Positions 9,783 through 51,091 of a stretch of 64,000 nucleotides of DNA are shown here, piece after piece. The translations under genes and the position numbers were made by a program. The stretch covers positions 24,324 to 88,323 of the forward strand of contig CAIOZA010000015.1 of NCBI GenBank assembly GCA_903862655.1, given 5' to 3'. Position 1 is the stretch's first letter, and each line of letters starts with the position of its first letter. This DNA comes from an uncultured Ignavibacteria bacterium (GTDB lineage: Bacteria > Bacteroidota > Ignavibacteria > Kapaibacteriales > UBA2268). The notes under the pieces were generated by a model. It made no database searches and was not told the origin of the DNA. It saw only the letters and a list, made by a program, of their open reading frames with translations.

Positions 9783-12700
9783 TTATTTTATCACACTTAA
9801 AGTGCTTATGAACATCTCACCGTTGCCGCTTATTATCATTTTGTAAATTCCTGATCTTAAGTTCTCGGTTGGTAAAACGAAGTCTATATAATGTCTTACT
9901 ACCTTCGAGTTGTCGATAGTATATTGTGCGATTTCAGAACCATCAATAGAATAGATCACAAGAGTATATTTTCCTTCGCTCGTGTTAATAATGCTGATTT
10001 CAGTCGACTCCCCTGCCGGATTAGGAGCAATGCTCATCATCATTTTGTCGGAAATCATGATTCTGTTTATGTCCTGAAAGCACACACTCAAAGCTTCTAA
10101 TCTGCCTGTCTTCAATTCGGATCTGACAAGTGGATTCCCCCAATTAAAATAGTCAATTATCAGTGGGGTAAATGCGTGTTCTCCAAGAAGAATTGTTCCC
10201 GTCACTTCAGAAAGAACGGTTTCTCTACCTGAAATGATAGCATTATTGTCTTCAATTTTCAGTATTCTTTCGCCATTGATTATCGTATCATGACGAATAA
10301 TTCCGTTTGTAAGGATTTCCGGAAGAAAGACATCGGCATAAAATCTCAGCTGTGCAGTGTATGAACTGACAACTGGAACAGAACCATAATATAAAATATT
10401 TGCCCTGATGGGTATTCTGAACTTTTTTGTTCCTATTATTCCGAAAGTATCAGGCATACTCACTCTGACTGTGCCGATTCCGGCACCAGTCAAGGCCACG
10501 AATATCCTGGCCCTGCATGGCTTACTTATTTCGAAAACAATAGTATCCTTATAATACATTATGTCTTGGGGACTGAATTTCACAGTAAGCTTGTGAATTT
10601 TTCCGATAGCTAGCTCTACTTCACTGTTTTCACTTATCACTTCGAAAGCAGAATTTGTACCAATGGCATAAATAGTATCAATAATAATTTTATCCTGAGA
10701 TCCAGCCCAGTATTCGATTGACATATTCCTGTTGGTTAGTCTGTCAGTCCCACCGAAATCTAAATTCTCCAAACCGCTAATATCAGCGACGGCATCATGT
10801 ATGTCAGCCTCGGATGTGCTTTCGCAACCGGTTGAGTCGAAAACTGAAAGTCTGTATGTGCCGGCTTTGCCGATTCGGATAGATCTGCCTGTGTCTCCAG
10901 TGTTCCATTGGTATTTAACATAAGGATTTTCAGCAGTCAGAGTTATCGAATCTCCAGGGCAGATAAAGTAGCCTTTGTCGCTAAGAATTTTCAGCTCAGG
11001 TTGTGGATTGAACATCACAGCTACAGAATCAACTCTTTTGCAACCTGTTTGATTCGTGACAGTCAACCTATAGATACCACTTTTTGTTACCTGAATTGTG
11101 TCTTTTGTTTCTCCATTAGACCAGCTAATTGCATACCCGGTCTTATCTGTTATGGCTATCAATGTAACAGTGTCGCCATTGCATAGCTTAGGTTTACGAA
11201 TGATGTTTATATCAACAACAGGGCTAATCTTAAGAATTAATTCAAATTCTGAACTGTCGCGGCAGCCTGCTGGATTTGCGACTAATAGTTTATACTTCCC
11301 TGATTTCGAAACATACCTGACCGCAGATTTTATCCCATCATTCCAGGAATAATCATCAGCACTACCAATGATATTTGGAGTTAGAAGCAGACTATCTCCA
11401 TCGCAGATTTCATTCAGACTTCCCTGCTTTAATGAAGCGTCTGGTTTATCGAAAATCCTGACATCAATGCTGTCCTTGCCTTTACAGCCACCGTTAGTTG
11501 CTACTTCGAGATAGTATTTTCCATCCTGTGACACCTGAATCGATGCTGTAGTGTCCCCTGTTGACCATTTATATTTGAAACCTGCCGTAGCTGGATAAGC
11601 CGTTAGATTAATAAGATCATTCCGGCAAAATGGAGGTTTGGGATTTGACTTTATCTTGATGCCAAGTTCGGTGCCGGATTTTATAAGAACTGAGTCGATT
11701 GTTGAACATCCGTTACGTGAAAAAGCTTCAGCATAGATTGTACCTGTATTCTTTACAATGATTGATTGTGATGCTTCACCGGTTGACCAGAGATAGGATA
11801 TATCAGCATCAAATGGTTCTACCGTAAGTACCACACTATCGCCTTCACAAAAAACTGTAGGGCCGTTAGCTGTAATTTTAAATTCAGGTTTCTTGATATT
11901 TAGTATTTGTATCGAAGTAGTACGGATGCAGCCATCTTTCTCAATATTTAAGTAAAAGATACCTCCATGAGTAATTTTAGTAATTTGAGCCGAGTCACCG
12001 TTGGACCAGTTATATTTATAAACAGAGCCTTCAGGCTTGGCGGTTAAGATCATCGTATCGCCCTCGCAGAGGACTTTCGGCCCGATAACGATTATCTCGG
12101 GAATAAATCCGGGCACTGTTTTGATGTCTATTGTGTCACTGGCTCTGCAACCATTTGATTCAACCGTAACTGAGTATTTCCCTGCTTTGTTGATAGTTAT
12201 CGTATTTGCAGTCTCAAAAGTGCTCCACAAATAGCTGTAATCACTTCCCTGAGGTTGAGCAAATAGCTTCAAACTGTCACCCTCGCATATTATAGTGCTT
12301 CCGTCAGGAATAATTCTTGCTTTAGGTTTCGAAACAACTTTTATGAAAAGACTATCACTGAATTTGATTGATCCAGCGTTAACTGAGATATAATAATATC
12401 CACCCTGGTTTGAAGACACTTTAGACAAAGTCAGATTTGGTCCTAAAGAACTAAAGCCCATAGGTCCTGTCCATTTGAAAGAAGCAATGGGAATTGAGCA
12501 TGAAAGCTTGCATTCTGTATTGATAGAATCCCCCTCGCATATAGTTAATATGCTCGGAATATAAATCCAGGCGTAAAAACTTTGGATTGTTGCAGGCAAT
12601 CCCATGTTTGATCTGTGACTCCCAAGATTTATTGATGGCCCTGTCTGAACACTGATATCAATGCCCTTATTCGGTTCATTTATTTTCTTCAAAATCGTAT

Positions 12701-13676
12701 TATTGTTGTATGCAACATAGATTCTTCCGTCAGGAGCTAACTGCAGTCCAAAATAAGAACCATTGATGTCCATAACAGTTTTAATCGAATTTATGATCCG
12801 GGATGAATCCTTACTGCTAACATCATATGAATTGATAAAAAATCTTGAACTGATAAACATTTGGGAACAATCAGGTGAGAATTCTGCTGAATACGGCATA
12901 GCCCTTGTCTTTATATCGGAATAAACAGGAAGAAGGATTGTGTTACTGATGATCCCGTTGCTGCGATTAAATAATGAGAGTTCAACAAGTGTATCTGATG
13001 GCAAGGTGCAGGCAACCATCGACCCGTCAGGAGAAATTTTAATATTACCCTTTTCGTTGTCAGTTGAACCTTTGTGTATCGTTCCTACGTGTGAAATAAT
13101 CGGAGTAATACTTATTCCGCTATTATTAATCAATATTGAAAAGTAACTGTTATTAAGCCACCCATGTGCGACAAGCCATATATCCACACCGTTTGTGTGA
13201 TGAACAGCTGACATCTTTTGTGTTACATTCGGCAGAAACTGATTATTTTTATTTGTTACATCGCCGAGACCAGCATTTAGTCGGATGTCAACAGTGGAGT
13301 AGGCTAAAGTACGTGAAAAGGCATTGATTGTGAAAATATAATAAATAAACTGACTCATTGGTTTAGGAATAATTAATGCTCCCTGCGAAGCTGTGTTAGA
13401 TCCTCCAAGACCTGAACCATTCGGCATTATTTCGTGATTCTTGTTCCAGACAGTTTCGCCGTCAGTATAAAAGAGTAAGTTACCGGTTGAATCCGAGATT
13501 ACAGAACAAGCCTCAGGAGAAGCGAGTTGCCCGTCTGACATCACACTTGGTGCAGTGCCGCTAGGATTGAATGTTATCCCGGCACTATTGCCAAAATACC
13601 AGTTATATGCTTCCTTTTGAGAAAATGCAGTATAAATGGTAATTAGAACAATAAATATATAAGTATATTTTTTCAA
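9783..13676 (-). CDS. Large T9SS-secreted protein: N-terminal beta-propeller, tandem Ig-like repeats, C-terminal type A sorting domain
   Basis: Signal peptide, NWYFG...LLFYTDG propeller start, repeated C(E/D)GDS..L...Y.WS(T/N)G units, C-terminal IAPNPAGES...SGIY. Confidence 0.85.
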   Translation of the reverse strand: MKKYTYIFIVLITIYTAFSQKEAYNWYFGNSAGITFNPSGTAPSVMSDGQLASPEACSVISDSTGNLLFYTDGETVWNKNHEIMPNGSGLGGSNTASQGALIIPKPMSQFIYYIFTINAFSRTLAYSTVDIRLNAGLGDVTNKNNQFLPNVTQKMSAVHHTNGVDIWLVAHGWLNNSYFSILINNSGISITPIISHVGTIHKGSTDNEKGNIKISPDGSMVACTLPSDTLVELSLFNRSNGIISNTILLPVYSDIKTRAMPYSAEFSPDCSQMFISSRFFINSYDVSSKDSSRIINSIKTVMDINGSYFGLQLAPDGRIYVAYNNNTILKKINEPNKGIDISVQTGPSINLGSHRSNMGLPATIQSFYAWIYIPSILTICEGDSINTECKLSCSIPIASFKWTGPMGFSSLGPNLTLSKVSSNQGGYYYISVNAGSIKFSDSLFIKVVSKPKARIIPDGSTIICEGDSLKLFAQPQGSDYSYLWSTFETANTITINKAGKYSVTVESNGCRASDTIDIKTVPGFIPEIIVIGPKVLCEGDTMILTAKPEGSVYKYNWSNGDSAQITKITHGGIFYLNIEKDGCIRTTSIQILNIKKPEFKITANGPTVFCEGDSVVLTVEPFDADISYLWSTGEASQSIIVKNTGTIYAEAFSRNGCSTIDSVLIKSGTELGIKIKSNPKPPFCRNDLINLTAYPATAGFKYKWSTGDTTASIQVSQDGKYYLEVATNGGCKGKDSIDVRIFDKPDASLKQGSLNEICDGDSLLLTPNIIGSADDYSWNDGIKSAVRYVSKSGKYKLLVANPAGCRDSSEFELILKISPVVDINIIRKPKLCNGDTVTLIAITDKTGYAISWSNGETKDTIQVTKSGIYRLTVTNQTGCKRVDSVAVMFNPQPELKILSDKGYFICPGDSITLTAENPYVKYQWNTGDTGRSIRIGKAGTYRLSVFDSTGCESTSEADIHDAVADISGLENLDFGGTDRLTNRNMSIEYWAGSQDKIIIDTIYAIGTNSAFEVISENSEVELAIGKIHKLTVKFSPQDIMYYKDTIVFEISKPCRARIFVALTGAGIGTVRVSMPDTFGIIGTKKFRIPIRANILYYGSVPVVSSYTAQLRFYADVFLPEILTNGIIRHDTIINGERILKIEDNNAIISGRETVLSEVTGTILLGEHAFTPLIIDYFNWGNPLVRSELKTGRLEALSVCFQDINRIMISDKMMMSIAPNPAGESTEISIINTSEGKYTLVIYSIDGSEIAQYTIDNSKVVRHYIDFVLPTENLRSGIYKMIISGNGEMFISTLSVIK

Positions 13677-38600: not shown

Positions 38601-38991
38601 AGCATCTCCTATTTTTAAATTAAATAACCGCTTTGAATAAAAGTAACAAAAAAAACGCACCTCTGACAAGTCAAAGGAGCGTAAAATGTATAAAGTCTAA
38701 TTAAATGAAAGTTACAATTGTTCTTTATCTCAACCGGTTAATTTCTAAAACGATGCAAGTATATTCTTTATTGTTTTTATAAATAAATTGGTGTAAATTG
38801 TATTTTTTCGGCAAAACGGACAAATTAGTGAATAGCCGGAATAGAGCACCAAAAGGAACGCTACAGACTATTTTCAAAATCCGTGAGACGTTTTGCGTTT
38901 TTCTGTGTCATTATATAATAAGATGTGACAATTTTAGAAAAAGTTTTATGAATCCGAAAAAATATTTAAACAAAATATATTGGATAGAATT

Positions 38992-41169
38992 ATGAATAAT
39001 CTTAAACTTGTATTGTTTGCATTAATGTTTATGCTATTTACCGTCGACTGTTTTTGCCAAATAGGATCTAAACCAATTCCAAATGATCAACTTGGTGAAA
39101 TTTATTCGTTTGCTTTTCGCAATGATGGTTATCTCTATGCCGGAGGAAGCACTATGCCAGGCTTTCTCGTTTCAAGTAACAAAGGAGATACCTGGAGCTT
39201 AGTTGATGAGGGAATTTACAACTCTATTATATATTATTATTTTACCCAAAAATTCTTATATGTAATTGATATTAATGGTAGTTTGCATCAGTTATCAAAA
39301 AATGGAGGATTAAAGCGAATAACACCCGAAAGTGATAATGACTACGTTACAGTTTTCTTAGCTGATTCAAATGCTGATATATATTATGGCACCGATAATG
39401 GTTATTTGTATAAATCGATTGATAACGGTGCTACCTTTACTGAACTCTTTTATCAGGATAATACTAGTGGCATAGGATGCTTTTTCATTTATAATAACGA
39501 TATGTATTTAGGTGTCGGGGGTAAAGGAATTTTTAAATCAATAGATCAGGGTTCAACCTGGCAGGAATTCACTGACGGAGTAGATTCAAAGAATGCTGTT
39601 AAATTTGTAATCAATCCTAATGACACTAATCTGTATTTTATTGACAGATATTCGGGTTTATACAAGTTATCTGAAGATGGAAGCCAATGGACAGTAGTTG
39701 ATAATATTCATTGTCAATATCTGTTAACGGATTTAATCGTTTCAAAAGGCTCAATGTATTTATCTACGGAAAACAAAGGGATATTTAAATCATTGGATAA
39801 TGGTATTTCATGGCAACAGTTAGCAGTTGGTCTGATTAATTCATCAATTACAATTGCAGCAGATTCATCAGGAGTATTATTCACTTCTGATATGGTTAAT
39901 TGTTATAAATCCACAAATAACGGAGATGAATGGATTTGTTTTACAAATTCGAATCAAAAGACTACTGTTAATACTATTCTAACAGATGCTAAAGGTTCAA
40001 TTTACTGCACAATAAATAATGACATATATTACAGTACTGATTCCGGTAATAATTGGAAAATAATTTCTCGTCCTGACAATAATACTAATTTTACTAACTT
40101 GAAAATTATAAATGATACAATCTTGTGTATCATTTATCAAGAAAATGATGAGTTGTATTATTCTAGTAACAAAGGAGAAGAATGGAATCAAGTAAACTTT
40201 GAAGATAACAACTTCAAATATTTAGTTGATATTTGTTCTGGAAAAAATAAGGATATATTTATTTTAAGTGCTTTTTCAGTATTTGCTTCAACGGATTTGT
40301 CAATCAACCAGAAAAAGTTATCAAATGTTGGAAAGTATTATATTTTAAATGATAGTATTGAAATAGCAACATTGGGTTTGAATATAAATTCAAAAAATGA
40401 AATTTATATTTTTCATGAATTATCAATTGTTACAAAATCAACAGATCTAGGTCAAACTTGGAATTTATTGAAAAGTATTAATAGTTTTGATGATTATGTT
40501 CCAAGTGTTATTAAATTAGAGTTCAATAGTAAGAATGAGATTTATTATTTAGATACTGATGGCTTCTTATTTAAATCAGTTGATGATTTTAAAACATCAA
40601 TAAATTTAAATAAAGCATTTCTTGATGCTTCCGATGGGATTTCTTCATTTGTTATAAATTCCAAAGATTATATCTTTATCGGTACTAATTTTGGTAAGAT
40701 ATACTATACAGTTGATGGTGGGATTAATTGGGAATTATTTAATTCACCACTTAGTGTTAAAAAAACATATGACACACCGCTTTCAATTGAGAAACGAATC
40801 TACTCATTAGGATTGGATAAAAATGAAAATCTAATTGTTGGTACTGATAAAGGGATTTTAAAAACAAATCTATCTACCACTGACCCAGAAACTGAACTAA
40901 ATATTGAAACTGATACAGATTTATCAAATATAACAATCTCTCCCAATCCCGCTTCTGATTTCATAGAAATATCAGACATCAACCCCATGCTTAAGCATGG
41001 GGTTGAATACTCAAATATCAGGATATTTAATGTATTTGGGCAGAATGTGTCATCAACTTGGGCGGGTTTAGAACCCGCCCCTACAATACGAATTGATGTA
41101 TCTGGCTTGGCTCCGGGCATGTATTTTGTGAGGATTGGGGATAGAGATCAAAAGTTTATTAAAATTTAA
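38992..41169 (+). CDS. T9SS-secreted BNR/Asp-box beta-propeller protein
   Basis: Signal peptide, many S.D.G.TW repeats, C-terminal ISPNPASD...GMYFVRIG...KFIKI; ATG 38992 preferred. Confidence 0.88.
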   Translation: MNNLKLVLFALMFMLFTVDCFCQIGSKPIPNDQLGEIYSFAFRNDGYLYAGGSTMPGFLVSSNKGDTWSLVDEGIYNSIIYYYFTQKFLYVIDINGSLHQLSKNGGLKRITPESDNDYVTVFLADSNADIYYGTDNGYLYKSIDNGATFTELFYQDNTSGIGCFFIYNNDMYLGVGGKGIFKSIDQGSTWQEFTDGVDSKNAVKFVINPNDTNLYFIDRYSGLYKLSEDGSQWTVVDNIHCQYLLTDLIVSKGSMYLSTENKGIFKSLDNGISWQQLAVGLINSSITIAADSSGVLFTSDMVNCYKSTNNGDEWICFTNSNQKTTVNTILTDAKGSIYCTINNDIYYSTDSGNNWKIISRPDNNTNFTNLKIINDTILCIIYQENDELYYSSNKGEEWNQVNFEDNNFKYLVDICSGKNKDIFILSAFSVFASTDLSINQKKLSNVGKYYILNDSIEIATLGLNINSKNEIYIFHELSIVTKSTDLGQTWNLLKSINSFDDYVPSVIKLEFNSKNEIYYLDTDGFLFKSVDDFKTSINLNKAFLDASDGISSFVINSKDYIFIGTNFGKIYYTVDGGINWELFNSPLSVKKTYDTPLSIEKRIYSLGLDKNENLIVGTDKGILKTNLSTTDPETELNIETDTDLSNITISPNPASDFIEISDINPMLKHGVEYSNIRIFNVFGQNVSSTWAGLEPAPTIRIDVSGLAPGMYFVRIGDRDQKFIKI
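40979..41084. repeat. Two in-frame REP-like palindromes inside the CTD coding sequence
   Basis: Perfect 28-bp palindrome TCAACCCCATGCTTAAGCATGGGGTTGA (40979-41006) and GGGCGGGTT-TAG-AACCCGCCC-CTAC (41060-41084). Confidence 0.85.
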
Positions 41170-41180
41170 GGATTATCATA

Positions 41181-42653
41181 ATGAAAAAGTTGCTGGTTAT
41201 TCTATGGTTAATCTCAGCCGAGATAGTATTTGGGCAGACATCAGGCTGGGAATATCGTTACATTTATAAAGAACAGATGCTAAAAATTAATAAATTGAAT
41301 GCTGTTCATTTCAATGAAGATGGCAGTAAATTCTATACTTTACATGCTAATAAAATAGTGTATTATTGGGATTCAAAGTCAGGCACTCTACTTGATTCTT
41401 TGATAATTCCTGAAGATTATACTACAGCAGTTTTTTCTAAGGATGGCCGAACTTTGTGCTACTATTTACCTATCACTTCTACGATGGGAGTTTATTTTAG
41501 CGTAAATGTATTTATTTATGATTTATTTACAAAAAAGAGAATTGCAAAGTCAATCTTTAATGGTCCTAAGGATATCAATTATATTAAACCATACACAAAT
41601 TTAGGTTATATAGATTATCCTAGGGTGCTTTCTATTCTTGATTTTGATTATAATTCTTATGTTCTAAAAGCAGGTGTTTATTTCACATATTACTGGAGAG
41701 AGGGACCCATACAGGCAGATTATGAACACCGTTATTCATGTGGTGGATTGGCATTCTTTGCAATAAATAAGGATAGCGTCTATAAGATTGGGCAAGCTAC
41801 GACTGCACATACCCTTGATTATCTTAAAACAGGCGATTCTGATTATATGACTCTACAGAGTAGTTCAAGAGACTATGGTGGTTCCAGTTCACTTAGGAAC
41901 GATGTCACAGAATCTAATATGGTATTCTCTAAAATCGATACGTTAACTGGAAAGTACAAACAGCTAAAAGCATTTAATCAAAAAATAGTATATAGTTGGG
42001 TACAAGGAAGTAATCCTGTTAATTATACATCAGGAACAAACAGACCCTTTTCAAAAATATATTACGACAGCACGAATAGTTTAGTATACGTAAAAGCACT
42101 TGATATATATTATGTCTTTGATACCAAAACTGATTCTTTAGTTGATTCTGTGAAGTTGGAAGGTAGTATCGGACTTGAGAGAATAACAAAGGATTTTTCT
42201 CATATCATATATTATTATAATAAGAAAATAATAGTATTAAATTTGAAGACGAAAGTAATGTATGATTGGATGTCCTGCCCTATGGTGCCTGTTTCTTTGG
42301 ATTTAACACCGAATAATAATGACATAATAGTTGCAAATGACTCAGGCAAAATTTTTTATTATTACACAATTTTATCCGATGTTAAAGATAGAATAAATGT
42401 TGAAGAAATGAGTATCTCTCCCAATCCTGCCTCTGATTTCATTGAAATATCCGTAGGGGCGAACGGCAGTTCGCCCTTACAAAGCGATGTGAGGATATAT
42501 GACGTGCTTGGAGAAATCCAGACCACCCCGTCACTTCGTGACACCCCTCCTTGGAAAGGAGGGGCAAAAGCAAGAATCGACGTTTCCTCCTTGGCTCCCG
42601 GCATGTATTTTGTGAGGATTGGGGATAGAGTTCAAAAGTTTGTGAAAATATAA
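41181..42653 (+). CDS. T9SS-secreted WD40-like beta-propeller protein
   Basis: Signal peptide, FNEDGSK, FSKDGRTL and LTPNNND repeats, C-terminal ISPNPASD...GMYFVRIG...KFVKI. Confidence 0.85.
   Translation: MKKLLVILWLISAEIVFGQTSGWEYRYIYKEQMLKINKLNAVHFNEDGSKFYTLHANKIVYYWDSKSGTLLDSLIIPEDYTTAVFSKDGRTLCYYLPITSTMGVYFSVNVFIYDLFTKKRIAKSIFNGPKDINYIKPYTNLGYIDYPRVLSILDFDYNSYVLKAGVYFTYYWREGPIQADYEHRYSCGGLAFFAINKDSVYKIGQATTAHTLDYLKTGDSDYMTLQSSSRDYGGSSSLRNDVTESNMVFSKIDTLTGKYKQLKAFNQKIVYSWVQGSNPVNYTSGTNRPFSKIYYDSTNSLVYVKALDIYYVFDTKTDSLVDSVKLEGSIGLERITKDFSHIIYYYNKKIIVLNLKTKVMYDWMSCPMVPVSLDLTPNNNDIIVANDSGKIFYYYTILSDVKDRINVEEMSISPNPASDFIEISVGANGSSPLQSDVRIYDVLGEIQTTPSLRDTPPWKGGAKARIDVSSLAPGMYFVRIGDRVQKFVKI
42453..42564. 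repeat. Two in-frame REP-like palindromes inside the CTD coding sequence
   Basis: GTAGGGGCGAAC-GGCA-GTTCGCCCTTAC (42453-42480) and the double hairpin GTCAC-TTC-GTGAC-A-CCCCTCCTT-GGA-AAGGAGGGG (42530-42564). Confidence 0.85.
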
Positions 42654-42661
42654 GAACAAAA

Positions 42662-44038
42662 GTGATGAAAAAACAGATGATAGCTTTGATATGTTTCTTA
42701 TTGTTTCTAAAAAGTGTAAATGCAGAATGGATTCCAGTTAGAGTTGAACCATCACCACTTTTTCCGAATGATTCAATTAATATGAATATTATTTTCTCTG
42801 GAATGGATTGTGCCGATTCTATAAATTGTTTTGCGGCTGGTAATGATGCTTATCGTTATAGAATAGTCTATCAAACAACAGATGCAGGTAGAAATTGGAA
42901 TATTTTATATAAACCTGATTTCAATTCAGGAATTAAAGACCAATTCCCTTTATTACGGTCTATAGCCTATCCTACAATTTATAAATCCGTTATTGGTTGT
43001 GATTCAGGAGTTGTTATTAAAACTGGTGATGGAGGTAAGAATTGGTCAAGAATAAATACTCCAATTTTCTATGAAGATAATTATCCTGAATATAAGCAAA
43101 TTAATACTGTAAAAATGTTAAATGAAAAGGTTGGGATTGCTTGTTCTGGACAATATTTGATTTATACAAGCGATGGGGGTAATTATTGGTCATACTTGTC
43201 AAAACCGGATTCTAATATGAGTAGTATTACAGGCGTTGAAATCTTTACACCGGAAACCATTTATATCAGAGTTAGTTGCTGGACAATTGATAAAGAATGT
43301 CCATTTAAGTTTTCATTATTCAGAACTAATGATCTTGGGAAGCATTGGCAGTCTTACGATTTTTCAAATATAGGTAGTATGGGAAAAATGTTTTTTGCCG
43401 ATTCCCTGAATGGTTGGATGGTCGGCGGTGACCCAAATGGAATAGGTGACCAGCAAATTGCTAAAATTGGAGCAACAAAAGACGGTGGTCGAACATGGTC
43501 AATACAATTTAGAGATTCATTAGAACCAATGGTTATGCCATTATTCGATGTTTCATTTTATGATAGAAATAATGGTATAGCTGTAGGTAGAATTGGTTCA
43601 ACATTGAGAACTACCAACGGAGGACTAAACTGGATTCCTGATAACATTCCCGTTGATTTAACAAAACCTTACATAATTAATCCGGTTACTTGTTTCAGAA
43701 ATGTTAAAGTACCTCTTTTTTATGGTTTACCCGGAAGGATTTATTATTATGCATCTACTTCAGATGTTTATGATAATTATATGCAATCAACTGGTTGGTT
43801 TATTTCCCCCAATCCAACAACCGATTTCATTAATGTATTTGTAAGGGCGGGTTCAGAACCCGCCCCTACAGGCGAGATAAGGATATATAATGTCTTTGGG
43901 CAGATCGTATCCACCCCTAACCCCACCCCAACCCTCCCCGCAAGCAGGGAGGGAGTAAGAATGGATGTCTCCGGCTTGGCTCCGGGGATGTATTTTGTCA
44001 GGATTGGGGATAGAGTTCAAAAGTTTATAAAGTTGTAG
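42662..44038 (+). CDS. T9SS-secreted YCF48/BNR-repeat beta-propeller protein
   Basis: Signal peptide, T.DGG.NW repeats, FFADSLNGWMVG, C-terminal ISPNPTTD...GMYFVRIG...KFIKL. Confidence 0.88.
   Translation: MMKKQMIALICFLLFLKSVNAEWIPVRVEPSPLFPNDSINMNIIFSGMDCADSINCFAAGNDAYRYRIVYQTTDAGRNWNILYKPDFNSGIKDQFPLLRSIAYPTIYKSVIGCDSGVVIKTGDGGKNWSRINTPIFYEDNYPEYKQINTVKMLNEKVGIACSGQYLIYTSDGGNYWSYLSKPDSNMSSITGVEIFTPETIYIRVSCWTIDKECPFKFSLFRTNDLGKHWQSYDFSNIGSMGKMFFADSLNGWMVGGDPNGIGDQQIAKIGATKDGGRTWSIQFRDSLEPMVMPLFDVSFYDRNNGIAVGRIGSTLRTTNGGLNWIPDNIPVDLTKPYIINPVTCFRNVKVPLFYGLPGRIYYYASTSDVYDNYMQSTGWFISPNPTTDFINVFVRAGSEPAPTGEIRIYNVFGQIVSTPNPTPTLPASREGVRMDVSGLAPGMYFVRIGDRVQKFIKL
43840..43955. repeat. Two in-frame REP-like palindromes inside the CTD coding sequence
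   Basis: TGTAAGGGCGGGTT-CAG-AACCCGCCCCTACA (43840-43870) and CCCCACCCCAACCCTCCCCGCAAGCAGGGAGGGAG (43921-43955). Confidence 0.85.
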
Positions 44039-48127: not shown

Positions 48128-51091
48128 CTACTTCCTCACAAACACAGGATAAATCTCTCTGTGTGTGTTTGATATCTCCAGACTTATGAAGTACATACCG
48201 TTTGCGGCAAGTGTGCCGTCAGTCAGTGTTCCATCCCATTTGTCGCAGTAAACAGTGTTAGCGTTACGAGATTCTCCGTCTATGAGAAAGCGGACAAGTC
48301 TGTTGCTCTCATCGAGTATCTTTATATTTACTTTCGTCTGATCGGGAATTGAATAGATTATCTCCAGCACATCACGCGTCGGATTGAGCGGATTGGGTGC
48401 TACGATGCTGATATATTGTGCTTTATACCCTGCTACAACGGTATCCATCCTCATACACGATCCGACTGCACAGAATCGGAACAAAACCGAATCCGGCTGA
48501 TTTGTCGGAACTCTCCAGATGAATTCCTGATCTATAGCACGGGCGTAACCTACTGAAGTATAAGTCAAACCACCGTCAAAAGAAGCCAACGCCTCTATTG
48601 TATCGCAGGGGAAGAGGAAATTACCATATCTCCATTTGAACACCTTTGTCGGGCATGCTGTTGTGTTCGTATCCCAAGTTACAGGGAACGTTGCAGGTAG
48701 TATCATTACAGTATGTGATGAAGATGTGTCACTTTTTAAAGCAGTAGAAACAATATATCTTATGTCTATTGTAACATTTGTGTCTGCCATTGAACAGAAG
48801 TATCCATCGATGCAGGGTGCAATTGCCTGAAGCCAGAAGCTGTCCTGAGTAATCTTTTGTTTAGTAAGAAAATCTATCCACGATGTATTGACTCTAAACT
48901 GGAAATGAACACTGTCATAACATGAGCTTTTACATTTGAGGAAGAAACTTTCTCCGGCGCGATAGCTCTGATTCCAGAAAGTATCGACAGCAAAAGATTT
49001 GCCATTGAATGTGAAGTCAGATGATGTATCTGACGCAATTTTGGAGCCTATCCCCCAGATAACGAAAACCCCGGTCTTTCCTATGAAATTACTATCAACA
49101 ATAATGCTGACCTGATCTGTATCTTTAAGTGCAGGGATTATAGTTCTGAGAACCATCGAAGAATCATTTACAAGATTTCCAGCGATTTTTGGGACAAATT
49201 TTACTTCTATTCCTTTGGGGAATTTTTGCTTTGCATACCATTTAATGTCTATTTTCTCACCTTCGCAAAAAGTTGCTGGGGGTGATTTGGGTGTAAGTAT
49301 TTTCAATAACCCCGGTTGCTGCGATCCTATAAGGTAAGTTCCCTTGTTGGTTGTGGCAACCAGATCGTTCTTTCCATCTCCGTCAACATCAGCAACTTCT
49401 GCTGAAAATATGGTTTCATTTGGGAAAGTTACTGCAAAAACTGTATCGAATACCTTACCCGAACGGAAAGTATTATCGCTGTAGTTCTTCATTCGTAAAA
49501 CAGTTAAGTTTGCACCGTCAACCAGAACTACTTCATCTTTGCCGTCTATTGCCCCATCGAGATCATTCACTGCTGCTATCCAACCGTTTATCTGCTGAGT
49601 AGCTATTGTATCGAACTGCATGAGAAATGAATTTGGTGGCGATACCTTTGGTATTTTGGAAAGCGAAGGACGGTAGCGGAGTATCATAAGTCTGCTCTCG
49701 GCTACAGCCAGATTTTTTGTTGTTTGAGTTACGATGATTTCCTGTCCCTTATTGTTGGGATAATAAGGAAGCCATTCATTAGATGTTGATCCATCAAGAT
49801 CACCAACAGCAATCGACCAGCCATGATTCTTCTTGCCGGTAAATGGTTTTAAATCATCACTTCCTAAAGAAGTTATAGGAGCATCACTAGGATCGAATAG
49901 ATGAATTTTGGCTATACCATCGGAACCATCGAAACCTGTATATTCTTCGGAAACTATCTTGCATAAAATGGAATTTCCGGGCAGATCCATATATTCAGCG
50001 AAATACTGCTTGATTACAGGCTTTGTTGATGTTGTATCAATAAGAGAACTGAAGTCAAAATTACCTAATACTGCTATGTTAGGTTGTGTAATGTTATAAC
50101 TGAGCAGATAAGGATTATTTGTCTTGGTCTTCTGTCCTAATTTGTTTGTTATTTCAAAATTAAAAGCATTGCTTGTATCTATATCGCAAAAAGCAGGCAG
50201 AAGCATTGTCATATTGTTGGTTCCAAACTCTCTGTAAAGAGATGGTGGAGATAAACTCACAATCGGACCAAGAAGCACGCGGTTGTTTGTGTCGTCGCCA
50301 ATGTCATTAACCGGAAAAGCCGGCAGTGAATCTGCTGTGTTAAAAAGAGCTATACCGCGGAAAAATTGATTTTTATTGGCTAAAGAAGTATCAATAACTG
50401 GTTTGGTCATGTTAACAAGTGCATAAATCAGCTGGTCTGCTCCGGAGCTTTTACCGAAAATCGGAGTTATTGAAGCAAAAGTATTTTTGGGATAGTTGCG
50501 AATGTCAAGAGCAAGGCGACGCAGAATCTTCACTGTATCGGGAGCCAGATCGTAGCGTCCGATGAAAGCAAAAGTCAGAGAGTCAAACAGACTCTGATGT
50601 TCGATAGATTCGAGACCTATGTCGAGTATATCGTCAGAAACTGTACCCGGAAGAACATCATTTGGACTATAGAGCATTGAAACATTCTTGATAAGCGGCA
50701 TCGGATAATTATTAGTTTTGTGTGTCTTGCCTGTAGCATCGACAATAAGAATCTTACCTCCAACTGCCGCAATAATCTCATTAGGTGAAAAAGTGAAGGC
50801 AGGATCCACCTTTGGATTATTAATGATATTACCAATTAAAGGCTGCACATCACCATAAACAGAACTGTTGAACCATTTAACCTCAAACTTGCTGAGAGTC
50901 TGACTGCCGGATTTCGTCTTTTGAATACGGGTAGCTTCAGAATTACCGTTTGGAAGCATCCAGTTTGAAGGACTCGCTAAGAAAGTCTGGGACTTGATCA
51001 ACAAAGACGACAAAAGGAAACAACTCAGAACAAGTACTGCTTTGTTCAATAATTCAAATGGTTTAACGGCAATAATCATAATATCCAACAC
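48128..51091 (-). CDS. Large secreted FG-GAP-repeat protein with C-terminal FlgD-Ig/T9SS-type domain
   Basis: Signal peptide; VGDLDG, NDLDGAIDGKDEVV and ADVDGDGKNDLV; C-terminal APNPLNP...WDG.....ANGMYF. Confidence 0.82.
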   Translation of the reverse strand: MLDIMIIAVKPFELLNKAVLVLSCFLLSSLLIKSQTFLASPSNWMLPNGNSEATRIQKTKSGSQTLSKFEVKWFNSSVYGDVQPLIGNIINNPKVDPAFTFSPNEIIAAVGGKILIVDATGKTHKTNNYPMPLIKNVSMLYSPNDVLPGTVSDDILDIGLESIEHQSLFDSLTFAFIGRYDLAPDTVKILRRLALDIRNYPKNTFASITPIFGKSSGADQLIYALVNMTKPVIDTSLANKNQFFRGIALFNTADSLPAFPVNDIGDDTNNRVLLGPIVSLSPPSLYREFGTNNMTMLLPAFCDIDTSNAFNFEITNKLGQKTKTNNPYLLSYNITQPNIAVLGNFDFSSLIDTTSTKPVIKQYFAEYMDLPGNSILCKIVSEEYTGFDGSDGIAKIHLFDPSDAPITSLGSDDLKPFTGKKNHGWSIAVGDLDGSTSNEWLPYYPNNKGQEIIVTQTTKNLAVAESRLMILRYRPSLSKIPKVSPPNSFLMQFDTIATQQINGWIAAVNDLDGAIDGKDEVVLVDGANLTVLRMKNYSDNTFRSGKVFDTVFAVTFPNETIFSAEVADVDGDGKNDLVATTNKGTYLIGSQQPGLLKILTPKSPPATFCEGEKIDIKWYAKQKFPKGIEVKFVPKIAGNLVNDSSMVLRTIIPALKDTDQVSIIVDSNFIGKTGVFVIWGIGSKIASDTSSDFTFNGKSFAVDTFWNQSYRAGESFFLKCKSSCYDSVHFQFRVNTSWIDFLTKQKITQDSFWLQAIAPCIDGYFCSMADTNVTIDIRYIVSTALKSDTSSSHTVMILPATFPVTWDTNTTACPTKVFKWRYGNFLFPCDTIEALASFDGGLTYTSVGYARAIDQEFIWRVPTNQPDSVLFRFCAVGSCMRMDTVVAGYKAQYISIVAPNPLNPTRDVLEIIYSIPDQTKVNIKILDESNRLVRFLIDGESRNANTVYCDKWDGTLTDGTLAANGMYFISLEISNTHREIYPVFVRK

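What the first reader, a model, noticed from the sequence alone, without database searches (positions are those of the whole stretch)
40936..44038. REP-like palindromes inserted in-frame at two fixed loop slots of T9SS C-terminal secretion domains
Seen: each of three tandem T9SS-substrate genes has a CTD of the form ISPNP..DFI[slot A]..RI(F/Y)(N/D)V.G(Q/E)[slot B]R(I/M)DVS.LAPGMYFVRIG. All six slots hold a GC-rich DNA hairpin inside otherwise AT-rich genes. Gene 1 has A = perfect 28-bp TCAACCCCATGCTTAAGCATGGGGTTGA (INPMLKHGV) and B = GGGCGGGTTTAGAACCCGCCCCTAC (WAGLEPAPT). Gene 2 has A = GTAGGGGCGAACGGCAGTTCGCCCTTAC (VGANGSSPL) and B = a double hairpin ending CCCCTCCTTGGAAAGGAGGGG (TTPSLRDTPPWKGG). 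Gene 3 has A = GTAAGGGCGGGTTCAGAACCCGCCCCTAC (VRAGSEPAPT) and B = CCCCAACCCTCCCCGCAAGCAGGGAGGG (PTPTLPASREG). The same hairpin family occupies slot B in gene 1 and slot A in gene 3. The CTDs of 9783-13676 and 48128-51091 show no such hairpins. Established: hairpins with GTAG/CTAC ends are the signature of REPs acted on by HUH-type RAYT/TnpA(REP) enzymes, and coding palindromic insertions are known from Rickettsia RPEs. Inference: several unrelated REP families are repeatedly targeted to, or selected at, two tolerant CTD loops. This may be a REP-marked recombination or diversification system for secreted proteins. I am not aware of it having been described.
Basis: partly seen in the sequence, partly recalled or inferred. 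Interest (0 to 1): 0.88.

Follow-up and report, generated by a model that had tools for sequence, protein, structure and literature searches.

The report
Palindromic repeats inside secretion-tag loops
Short DNA hairpins of the kind that normally sit between bacterial genes lie in frame in two loops of a secretion tag carried by dozens of proteins in this bacterium and its relatives, and they differ between sister species.

Summary
The genome (4.07 Mb, 35.5% GC) has 268 C-terminal T9SS sorting domains (CTDs). Of these, 69 form a subfamily ending ..GMYFVRIGDRVxKFVKL. Of the 61 that I could parse, 47 have a strong hairpin in slot A, 46 in slot B and 43 in both. None of the 199 generic CTDs has a strict GC-rich hairpin.

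The hairpins exceed all 100 synonymous-recoding controls. Both slots are low-confidence loops in a CTD-like beta-sandwich model.

The GTAG/CTAC-type cassettes are true REPs. The same families lie between genes. They also flank RAYT-type Y1 transposase genes and sit in frame inside them, here and in related genera.

Synonymous sites are far more alike inside cassettes (0.81-0.91) than in the flanking CTD backbone (0.50-0.70). Orthologues in a sister species carry different cassettes. So the cassettes turn over quickly.

Best reading: REPs were captured in two permissive loops of one CTD lineage and then spread and swapped by conversion or REP-for-REP replacement. A diversification role for secreted proteins is not supported.

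In-frame REPs are already known. This domain-specific, two-slot, fast-turnover form appears not to have been described.

The parts
38980..41169 (+). Gene 1, a 729-aa T9SS cargo protein with beta-propeller/sialidase-like repeats. Its CTD runs from about 40936 to the stop codon.
   Evidence: ORF. TIGR04183 scores 30.3 bits at residues 653-728.
40979..41006 (+). Gene 1 slot A cassette: a perfect 28-nt palindrome read as INPMLKHGV.
   Evidence: MFE -21.9. Extragenic relatives lie at C36:13668, C11:20670, C59:4676 and C44:52017.
41060..41084 (+). Gene 1 slot B cassette: a RAYT-linked REP (GGGCGGGTT..AACCCGCCC + CTAC) read as AGLEPAPT.
   Evidence: There are 9 exact copies in the genome. The same family lies inside and beside the RAYT-like genes at C6 and C22.
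41181..42653 (+). Gene 2, a 490-aa T9SS cargo protein. Its CTD runs from about 42414 to the stop codon.
   Evidence: ORF. TIGR04183 scores 32.2 bits. The AlphaFold2 model of the last 84 aa is.
42453..42480 (+). Gene 2 slot A cassette: a GTAG...TTAC REP read as VGANGSSPL. This is the commonest slot-A family.
   Evidence: MFE -22.3. With up to 2 mismatches there are 20 copies in G000, 24 in G001 and 15 in G009. It lies in frame in a RAYT gene of G018 and of G001.
42530..42564 (+). Gene 2 slot B: two adjacent hairpins at 42530-42542 and 42544-42564, read as SLRDTPPWKGG.
   Evidence: MFE -20.9. Extragenic copies of the second hairpin lie at C86:9015 and C140:19723.
42662..44038 (+). Gene 3, a 458-aa T9SS cargo protein. 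Its CTD runs from about 43802 to the stop codon.
   Evidence: ORF. TIGR04183 scores 33.3 bits.
43841..43869 (+). Gene 3 slot A cassette: the same REP family as gene 1 slot B, read as VRAGSEPAPT. In the opposite orientation the family reads VGAGSEPALT in other CTDs.
   Evidence: There are 4 exact copies.
43932..43953 (+). Gene 3 slot B cassette: a polypyrimidine/polypurine hairpin read as LPASREG, with no GTAG tag.
   Evidence: The 28-nt stretch 43926-43953 has 5 exact copies. Extragenic relatives lie at C12:52825, C50:69569 and C67:1830.

Best explanation
The cassettes are REP-type palindromic elements that became fixed, in frame, in two surface loops of one lineage of T9SS type A sorting domains. 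The loops are beta1-beta2 (slot A) and beta3-beta4 (slot B).

**Shown**
- The GTAG/CTAC families are the same REPs that lie between genes and around and inside RAYT (Y1/HUH) transposase genes, in this genome and in its relatives.
- The cassettes are confined to one CTD subfamily.
- They keep the reading frame in every parsed copy.
- They are far less diverged than the backbone that carries them.
- They differ between orthologues of sister species.

**Inferred**
- A few rare founding insertions hit loops that tolerate almost any 9-26 residues of a domain that, as I recall, is cut off after export.
- Since then the resident hairpins have been spread and exchanged among the roughly 70 paralogous CTDs in two ways. 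One is short-tract conversion through the conserved backbone segments. The other is REP-for-REP replacement at the shared GTAGGGG/CCCCTAC feet, either RAYT-catalysed or by template switching at hairpins.
- Selection acts only as a filter for an open frame and a working tag. In this reading the hairpins do nothing useful for the cell.
For: **1. REP identity**
- I searched the genome with 72 distinct CTD hairpin cores. They hit 139 sites, 37 of them outside CTDs. Of those 37, 28 have no CTD-like sequence within 300 nt.
- The RAYT-like genes at C6:82364-82867 and C22:44348-44761 hold the AG.E.APT hairpin in frame and have same-family REPs just outside.
- In a related genus three identical 28-mers sit before, inside and after one RAYT gene (L117). 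Four further RAYT loci show internal plus flanking hairpins.
- The GANGRSPL hairpin is extragenic in G009 and lies inside a RAYT gene in G018.

**2. Loops**
- In the AlphaFold2 model (pLDDT 74.6) both slots fall between strands and have the lowest confidence.
- The best structural matches are solved T9SS CTDs: 8glk_D (TM 0.70/0.78) and 8qb1_A.

**3. Subfamily restriction**
- 39 of 69 subfamily CTDs hold a strict hairpin, against 0 of 199 generic CTDs.

**4. Youth or mobility of the cassettes**
- Among CTDs that share a cassette, third-codon identity is 0.81-0.91 inside the cassette. It is 0.50-0.70 in the flanking backbone segments.
- There are 7 four-gamete violations between slot-A and slot-B types.

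**5. Turnover between sister species**
- In 5 orthologue pairs with 80-97% identical passenger DNA, one or both cassettes differ. A sixth pair differs in CTD type altogether.
- In L049/C121 the change runs from mid-CTD to the stop codon, inside 99% identical flanks.
- In 5 of 5 pairs the CTD tail is closer to a paralogue in the same genome than to the orthologue.

**6. Repertoires specific to each lineage**
- Sets of loci taken from other genomes of the family carry other cassette sets at the same two slots.

**7. The same kind of in-frame capture in the RAYT gene itself**
- In 17 parsed homologues the loop after the HUH motif holds inserts of 4-101 aa, most of them hairpins or hairpin arrays.
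Against: - The commonest slot-A family (GANGRSPL) has no clearly extragenic copy in this genome and no cognate RAYT here. Within G000 it could have multiplied by CTD duplication alone.
- Four cassette types (LPASREG, LSTSGEG, PPWKGG, YPPLERGSGG) have no GTAG tag and no transposase link.
- A 28-nt REP is not a multiple of three. Simple insertion therefore cannot give the fixed 13-codon slot A seen in 49 of 61 CTDs, and I cannot reconstruct the founding event.
- Low synonymous divergence inside cassettes would also follow from selection on the hairpin itself. Two compensatory double changes occur in the AIHELPL family.
- AT-rich palindromes of unrelated sequence also occupy slot A. This hints that palindromy at that spot may itself matter.
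- No RAYT activity, no translation of the cassettes and no cleavage of these CTDs has been shown.
- All genomes are metagenome assemblies. Repeated CTDs break contigs, so some synteny breaks could be assembly joins.
Confidence: 0.55

Rival explanations
1. The hairpins are kept by selection for a nucleic-acid function at these two places in the genes. Possible functions are mRNA 3'-end protection, a translation pause before the tag is completed, or hot spots that promote exchange of CTD modules between genes.
For: - Palindromes of many unrelated families, AT-rich ones included, sit at the same two positions.
- Synonymous sites in cassettes are far more conserved than in the backbone.
- Two compensatory double changes occur in the AIHELPL family.
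- The trait persists across at least five related genomes with different repertoires.
- CTDs coincide with breaks in synteny between sister species.
Against: - There is no consistent strand rule. In slot A the sense RNA is more stable in 43 of 53 CTDs. In slot B the antisense is more stable in 39 of 54.
- Many copies carry single unpaired changes.
- 11 of 61 subfamily CTDs have no strong hairpin in either slot, and none of 199 generic CTDs has a strict GC-rich hairpin.
- Orthologues swap one family for another.
- Hairpins after the stop codon are not enriched: 6 of 69 against 17 of 194.
Confidence: 0.2
2. There is no REP-specific mobility. Two ancient insertions, or even palindromes that arose in place, were copied only by duplication of the CTD module and by ordinary homologous gene conversion among paralogues. 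The extragenic copies are a separate matter or are debris of decayed CTDs.
For: - One orthologue pair shows a conversion-like tract from the conserved middle segment to the conserved KFVKL end (L049/C121).
- In 5 of 5 orthologue pairs the CTD tail resembles a same-genome paralogue more than the orthologue.
- GANGRSPL and AIHELPL have no clear extragenic copies in G000.
- 9 of 37 non-CTD sites lie in or next to CTD-like sequence.
Against: - 28 of 37 non-CTD sites have no CTD-like neighbour.
- The same families flank and fill RAYT genes.
- At least 14 and 15 cassette classes need many independent origins.
- The backbone around shared cassettes is only 0.67-0.85 identical over stretches of about 30 nt, with third positions at 0.50-0.70. 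That is poor substrate for cassette-sized homologous conversion (inference).
Confidence: 0.2
3. The pattern is an artefact: chance palindromes, or chimeric assembly of repeated CTDs.
For: The genomes are metagenome assemblies. Several contigs end inside CTDs.
Against: - None of 100 synonymous-recoding controls of any kind reached the observed values.
- Contigs of public runs match without any difference across slots A and B of gene 2 and across slot A and slot B of gene 3. These runs may include the source sample.
- The same architecture appears in other genomes' assemblies.
Confidence: 0.02

Closest known systems
Intragenic GTAG-tagged REPs (Di Nocera, De Gregorio and Rocco 2013, PMC3733652; I read passages, and the supplements are closed)
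   Same: - Short GTAG-tagged palindromes, linked to RAYT genes, are sometimes found whole inside ORFs.
- The authors already suggested that such inserts may be neutral because they lie in loops or linkers.
   Different: - There the hosts are scattered, unrelated genes, many of them for DNA repair, and most copies are extragenic.
- Here 102 of 139 sites lie in one domain subfamily, at two fixed loops, with many families per loop and turnover between sister species.
- T9SS CTDs do not appear in the passages I read. Their Additional file 3 could not be checked.
Rickettsia palindromic elements (RPE). Recalled, and cited in PMC3733652 as in-frame inserts in ORFs of R. conorii.
   Same: Palindromic repeats inserted in frame in protein-coding genes that stay functional, apparently in tolerant surface positions.
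   Different: - As I recall, RPEs are longer (about 100-150 bp).
- They hit many unrelated genes once each.
- They are not tied to one domain or to a RAYT.
REP/RAYT units (REPtrons, REPINs). Recalled from Nunvar 2010, Bertels and Rainey 2011 and Ton-Hoang 2012, none of which I read here. RAYT genes flanked by REPs are confirmed by PMC3733652.
   Same: A Y1/HUH transposase gene flanked by its own REP family. Families have a patchy distribution that is specific to each lineage.
   Different: - Here a copy of the REP also lies in frame inside the RAYT gene, in the loop after the HUH motif.
- Most copies of several families are genic.
- Only 2 of 61 CTDs have the same family inverted in slots A and B, as a REPIN would.
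GC clusters and 'byp' elements in AT-rich yeast mitochondrial genes (recalled, not checked here)
   Same: GC-rich hairpin elements spread within coding DNA of an AT-rich genome.
   Different: - As I recall, byp elements are skipped by the ribosome and need not keep the frame.
- Here every parsed cassette keeps the frame and has no stop codon. This argues that they are translated.

Membership tests
T9SS type A sorting domain (TIGR04183, Por_Secre_tail) | Match to the curated profile above its cut-off of 23 bits | tested here: met
   The three window genes score 30.3, 32.2 and 33.3 bits. A cassette-free subfamily member scores 40.7 bits.
T9SS type A sorting domain (TIGR04183, Por_Secre_tail) | Located at the extreme C-terminus of the protein | tested here: met
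   The domains end 1-2 residues before the stop codon.
T9SS type A sorting domain (TIGR04183, Por_Secre_tail) | Seven-stranded beta-sandwich fold like solved CTDs | tested here: met
   The model has 7 strands. The top Foldseek hits are T9SS CTDs: 8glk_D (TM 0.70/0.78), 8qb1_A and 5m11. The E-values are only about 2e-3.
T9SS type A sorting domain (TIGR04183, Por_Secre_tail) | Export by a T9SS and removal of the tag | not testable with these tools
   I did not search for the T9SS machinery genes. Cleavage is recalled from other species.
REP (GTAG-tagged repetitive extragenic palindrome) | A 20-40 bp imperfect palindrome with a GTAG tag at one end | tested here: met
   Met for the GANGRSPL, AG.EPA.T, GTRRAVSE, G.QLAVSD, GEVTSPL, AIHELPL and VQNLEPL cassettes. 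Not met for the LPASREG, LSTSGEG, PPWKGG and YPPLERGSGG cassettes, which have no tag.
REP (GTAG-tagged repetitive extragenic palindrome) | Repeated many times in the genome | tested here: met
   139 sites match the CTD hairpin cores. There are 20 copies of one 28-mer at up to 2 mismatches.
REP (GTAG-tagged repetitive extragenic palindrome) | Predominantly extragenic | tested here: not met
   102 of 139 sites lie inside CTD coding sequence. I therefore describe these as REP-derived cassettes, not as typical REPs.
REP (GTAG-tagged repetitive extragenic palindrome) | Association with a RAYT gene | tested here: met
   See C6 and C22 in G000 and G001, G018 and G074.
RAYT (REP-associated tyrosine transposase, Y1_Tnp PF01797) | Profile match above the cut-off, with an HUH motif | tested here: met
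   C6 scores 36.8 bits and C22 33.3 bits against a cut-off of 23. The motif PNHLHLIL / PNHIHCII is seen in the translations. I did not locate the catalytic tyrosine with a tool.
RAYT (REP-associated tyrosine transposase, Y1_Tnp PF01797) | Single-copy gene flanked by its REP family | tested here: met
   Same-family hairpins lie 20-130 nt outside the ORFs. C22 is frameshifted, with one TGA inside the match.
REPIN (two inverted REPs that move as one unit) | The same family in inverted orientation at both ends, folding into one long hairpin | tested here: not met
   Only 2 of 61 CTDs (C139:88632-88883 and C147:31164-31415) have the same family inverted in slots A and B. Pairing between the flanks is no better than in the control, 39 against 32 of 53.
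Rickettsia palindromic elements | Element of about 100-150 bp (recalled) | tested here: not met
   The cassette hairpins are 17-35 nt long.

The most novel reading that the evidence does not exclude
Resident hairpins in coding loops act as landing pads for a RAYT-driven, hairpin-directed cassette exchange that works inside genes. REPs are swapped in frame at the shared GTAGGGG/CCCCTAC feet in two places: the T9SS tag loops and the transposase's own post-HUH loop. In this reading the disposable CTD family serves as a coding refuge in which REP families persist and multiply. This would explain three things: why most copies are genic, why each genus has its own repertoire, and why cassettes look much younger than their backbones.
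Probability: 0.3. Interest if true: 0.85.

Novelty: new variant of a known kind. Interest (0 to 1): 0.72.

Why it matters
- It shows REP-type elements living mainly inside genes. About 100 in-frame copies sit in one genome, and related genomes carry more CTDs of this subfamily. This strains the word 'extragenic' and the view that intragenic REPs are scattered accidents.
- It is a natural mutagenesis of the T9SS signal. Two loops accept 9-26 residues of almost any sequence, while five backbone segments stay fixed. This tells T9SS workers which parts of the tag matter.
- It offers a dense set of young markers for following gene conversion and module swapping among secreted-protein genes.
- The parallel slot inside the RAYT gene gives a testable handle on where these enzymes act.
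- On the practical side, the cassettes lower CTD profile scores (30-33 bits against 40.7) and break metagenome contigs.

Tried and rejected
**Ideas tested and dropped**
- A third hairpin slot just after the stop codon. There is no enrichment: 6 of 69 subfamily genes against 17 of 194 generic genes.
- Pairing between the backbone flanks of slot A, as a landing-pad stem. 39 of 53 show it, against 32 of 53 in a reversed-flank control, so I dropped it.
- An mRNA-sense bias of the hairpins. Slot A and slot B point in opposite directions.

**Analyses that gave little**
- Backbone tree. With only 45 columns most forks stay open. Short and AT-rich forms fall into two supported small clades, but the direction of change is unresolved.
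- Covariation. There are two compensatory changes in one family and otherwise only one-sided changes, which is not decisive.
- Population-level swapping. Runs X1-X4 are low-depth contigs from one study (lake water metagenomes). The 'joints' are other CTD paralogues laid partly on the window. They are not evidence of exchange.
- Expression. No RNA holder is listed.
- Foldseek against the PDB gave no hit with E <= 0.001, although the top hits are T9SS CTDs.

**Not done or not available**
- I did not run complex prediction, the protein atlas, the search for homologous proteins or the search of protein representatives.
- I did not search for T9SS machinery genes.

**Literature**
- Searches found no paper that links REPs or palindromes to T9SS CTDs. 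In one search, five of the six cassette peptide strings occur in no paper held. The sixth, GEVTSPL, occurs once, in an unrelated serum proteomics paper.
- The search covers only the open-access library.
- The supplements of PMC3733652, which list the ORFs that carry REPs, are closed, so a CTD host listed there cannot be excluded.

Full report
**What is in the window**

Three tandem genes on the + strand (38980-41169, 41181-42653, 42662-44038) each end in a domain of about 80 aa. The domain passes the curated T9SS type A sorting-domain profile TIGR04183 with 30.3, 32.2 and 33.3 bits against a cut-off of 23.

The window is contig C15:24324-88323 of a 4.07 Mb assembly of 148 contigs with 35.5% GC.

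**Scale in the genome**

- An HMM built from the three CTDs hit 101 six-frame ORFs. Iterating it gave 268 C-terminal CTDs.
- 69 CTDs form a subfamily ending ..GMYFVRIGDRVxKFVKL. I could cut 61 of them into five backbone segments and two slots. Eight were fragments or too divergent.
- Slot A has 13 codons in 49 of 61, 15 in 3 and 7 in 7.
- A hairpin of -10 kcal/mol or better is present in slot A in 47, in slot B in 46, in both in 43 and in neither in 11.
- The slots average 53-57% GC, against 31-41% for the backbone.

**Controls**

- Synonymous recoding used three nulls: genome codon usage, CTD codon usage, and permutation of the slots' own codons. It gave mean MFEs of -7.5 to -10.3 for slot A, against -17.5 observed. 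For slot B it gave -8.0 to -9.6, against -13.8 observed. No replicate of 100 per null reached the observed value.
- Of 208 perfect GC-rich hairpins in the genome, 48 lie in CTD intervals that are 0.60% of the DNA.
- All 48 are in the subfamily, in 39 of its 69 CTDs. None is in the 199 generic CTDs.
- The two generic CTDs in the window behave the same way.
- Among the strict hairpins inside other long ORFs that belong to cassette families, the ones I checked turned out to lie upstream of the real start codon or in doubtful ORFs. I therefore found no convincing in-frame copy outside CTDs and RAYT genes.

**Structure**

An AlphaFold2 model of the last 84 aa of gene 2, built with a 23-row alignment, has mean pLDDT 74.6. 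Its strands are at residues 5-7, 14-18, 30-35, 40-42, 57-61, 68-74 and 77-83. Slot A (residues 19-29) and slot B (43-56) are the two long inter-strand stretches, and they have the lowest confidence.

The best Foldseek matches are solved T9SS CTDs, namely 8glk_D (TM 0.70/0.78), 8qb1_A and the CTD of PorZ. Their E-values are weak, about 2e-3.

**The cassettes are REPs**

Many cassettes have GTAGGGG...CCC(C/T)TAC feet around a family-specific core. I searched the genome with 72 distinct cores and found 139 sites, 102 in CTDs and 37 outside. Nine of the 37 lie in or next to CTD-like sequence. The other 28 do not. Among these is a recurrent two-hairpin module found at five places.

The genome has 14 matches to the Y1 transposase profile. 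Two of them are RAYT-like:
- C6:82364-82867 is intact.
- C22:44348-44761 is frameshifted.
- Both carry the GGGCGGGTT..AACCCGCCC hairpin in frame, just after the HUH motif. Both have the same family just outside the ORF.

Homologues occur in 32 of 61 genomes of the bacterial family, G000 included. In 17 parsed loci the loop after HUH holds 4-101 aa, mostly one to several hairpins.

Specific links between cassette families and RAYT genes:
- In L117 three identical 28-mers sit before, inside and after the RAYT gene.
- In G001 and G018 the internal hairpin is the GANGRSPL 28-mer.
- G001 also has a RAYT with a GTRRAVSE-like hairpin inside it and on both sides. Another G001 RAYT has an AIHELPL-type hairpin beside it.
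- In G009 the GANGRSPL hairpin is extragenic, in 235-nt tandem units.

The families are patchy. The GANGRSPL 28-mer occurs in 4 of 61 relatives searched, and the AGLEPAPT 25-mer in 5 of 201 genomes of the class, G000 included in both counts.

**Cassettes are younger, or more constrained, than their hosts**

Among CTDs that share a cassette family, third-codon identity is 0.81-0.91 inside the cassette and 0.50-0.70 in the three backbone segments (profiles). The mean pairwise DNA identity of the tails is 0.75.

Slot A and slot B types are reassorted. There are 14 and 15 classes in 30 combinations, with 7 four-gamete violations.

**Turnover between species**

A scan of genome contigs returned 80 loci, and 60 could be parsed. 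Of these, 56 have a slot-A hairpin, 52 a slot-B hairpin and 48 both. One relative shares most families with this genome. Another has its own set.

A search of five further genomes of the family found 8 to 133 matches each. Loci from three of them carry cassettes of their own kinds.

Orthologues with 80-97% identical passenger DNA differ in cassettes:
- L039 against C58: both slots differ.
- L055 against C24: both slots differ.
- L051 against C46: both slots differ.
- L099 against C106: slot B only.
- L049 against C121: slot B only.
- L050 against C148: the CTD type itself differs.

In L049/C121 slot A and the middle segment are nearly identical. Slot B and the tail differ (tail 79%), and the 450 nt after the stop codon are 99% identical. 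This looks like a conversion tract bounded by conserved backbone. In the other pairs the alignment is lost after the CTD. That may reflect real rearrangement at a dispersed repeat, or assembly joins.

**What argues against a function for the hairpin itself**

- Orientation differs between the slots.
- Many copies have unpaired single changes.
- Short-loop subfamily members and all generic CTDs have no such hairpin.
- Families replace one another.

What argues for a function:
- Palindromes of unrelated families, AT-rich ones included, sit at the same spot.
- There are two compensatory changes.
- Synonymous sites in the cassettes are conserved.

**Assembly check**

Contigs of four public lake-water runs from one study match without any difference across both slots of gene 2, and across slot A and slot B of gene 3. 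These runs may include the source sample.

**Reading**

REP-type elements entered two permissive loops of one CTD lineage. They have since been copied and exchanged among its paralogues. Selection has kept only the frame and the tag's backbone.

Why only this subfamily carries them is best explained by descent from founders that already held a hairpin, followed by replacement at the resident hairpins. This step is inferred, not shown. Because type A CTDs are removed on secretion (recalled, not tested here), the variety is unlikely to serve the mature proteins.

**Compared with what is known**

In-frame REPs and RPEs are in print (PMC3733652, passages read). Four aspects were found in none of the six literature searches:
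- the concentration in one domain at two fixed loops;
- the many families per loop;
- the fast turnover;
- the matching slot inside RAYT genes.

The limits of that search are given under Tried and rejected.

I rate this a new variant of a known kind, with interest 0.72.

Noticed in passing
G000:C6:82364-82908, G000:C22:44215-44810, and L117 positions 1435-2154: RAYT-like transposase genes carry a copy of their own REP in frame in the loop after the HUH motif, besides the flanking copies. In L117 the three 28-mers are identical. In 17 homologues the loop holds 4-101 aa, often arrays of hairpins. I found no description of this in the papers searched.
   Followed up: partly
G000: C122:10109-10175, C93:6355-6416, C95:53332-53396, C114:1599-1663, C19 near 89796: A recurrent extragenic module of two different REPs (GGACACGGC..-type, then GGGCGGGTT..-type) about 15 nt apart.
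   Followed up: no
G000: e.g. C44:37085/37193, C60:8916/9023, C64:11789/11891, C76:2271/2379, C97:9656: Another hairpin family (CCACGAGC..GCTCGTGG) occurs only between genes. It often comes as inverted pairs about 100 nt apart, like REPINs. One copy lies about 50 nt upstream of an IS200-like Y1 transposase ORF at C97:9725-10150. It is never seen in CTDs.
   Followed up: no
L050 against G000:C148:6530-7879: Orthologous genes with 73-93% identical passenger DNA end in different CTD types. The relative has a cassette-bearing subfamily CTD, and this genome has a generic CTD.
   Followed up: partly
L109 (G009:C267) positions 1339-1900: Tandem 235-nt units, each with the GANGRSPL hairpin, lie downstream of a 1095-aa tricorn-like peptidase gene.
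   Followed up: no
G000: C14:6578-6850, C98:3599-3898, C142:122035-122406, C8:7569-7781, C45:4124-4309: Several short ORFs match the Y1_Tnp profile only in part and share odd, low-complexity-looking translations (..RLAERLLHF..). They may be decayed or frame-shifted IS200/IS605 remnants.
   Followed up: no
Record titles of loci L029-L108: Most related assemblies are titled 'uncultured Hyphomicrobiales bacterium', while two are titled Ignavibacteria. Hundreds of T9SS CTDs and 35% GC fit the latter better, so the former label looks wrong (inference).
   Followed up: no
L049 positions about 1290-1340 and G000:C121 downstream of 3451: A short remnant that encodes only the ..PGMYF.RIGD.. tail of a CTD follows the next small ORF. 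It is a likely relic of a decayed or recombined CTD.
   Followed up: no
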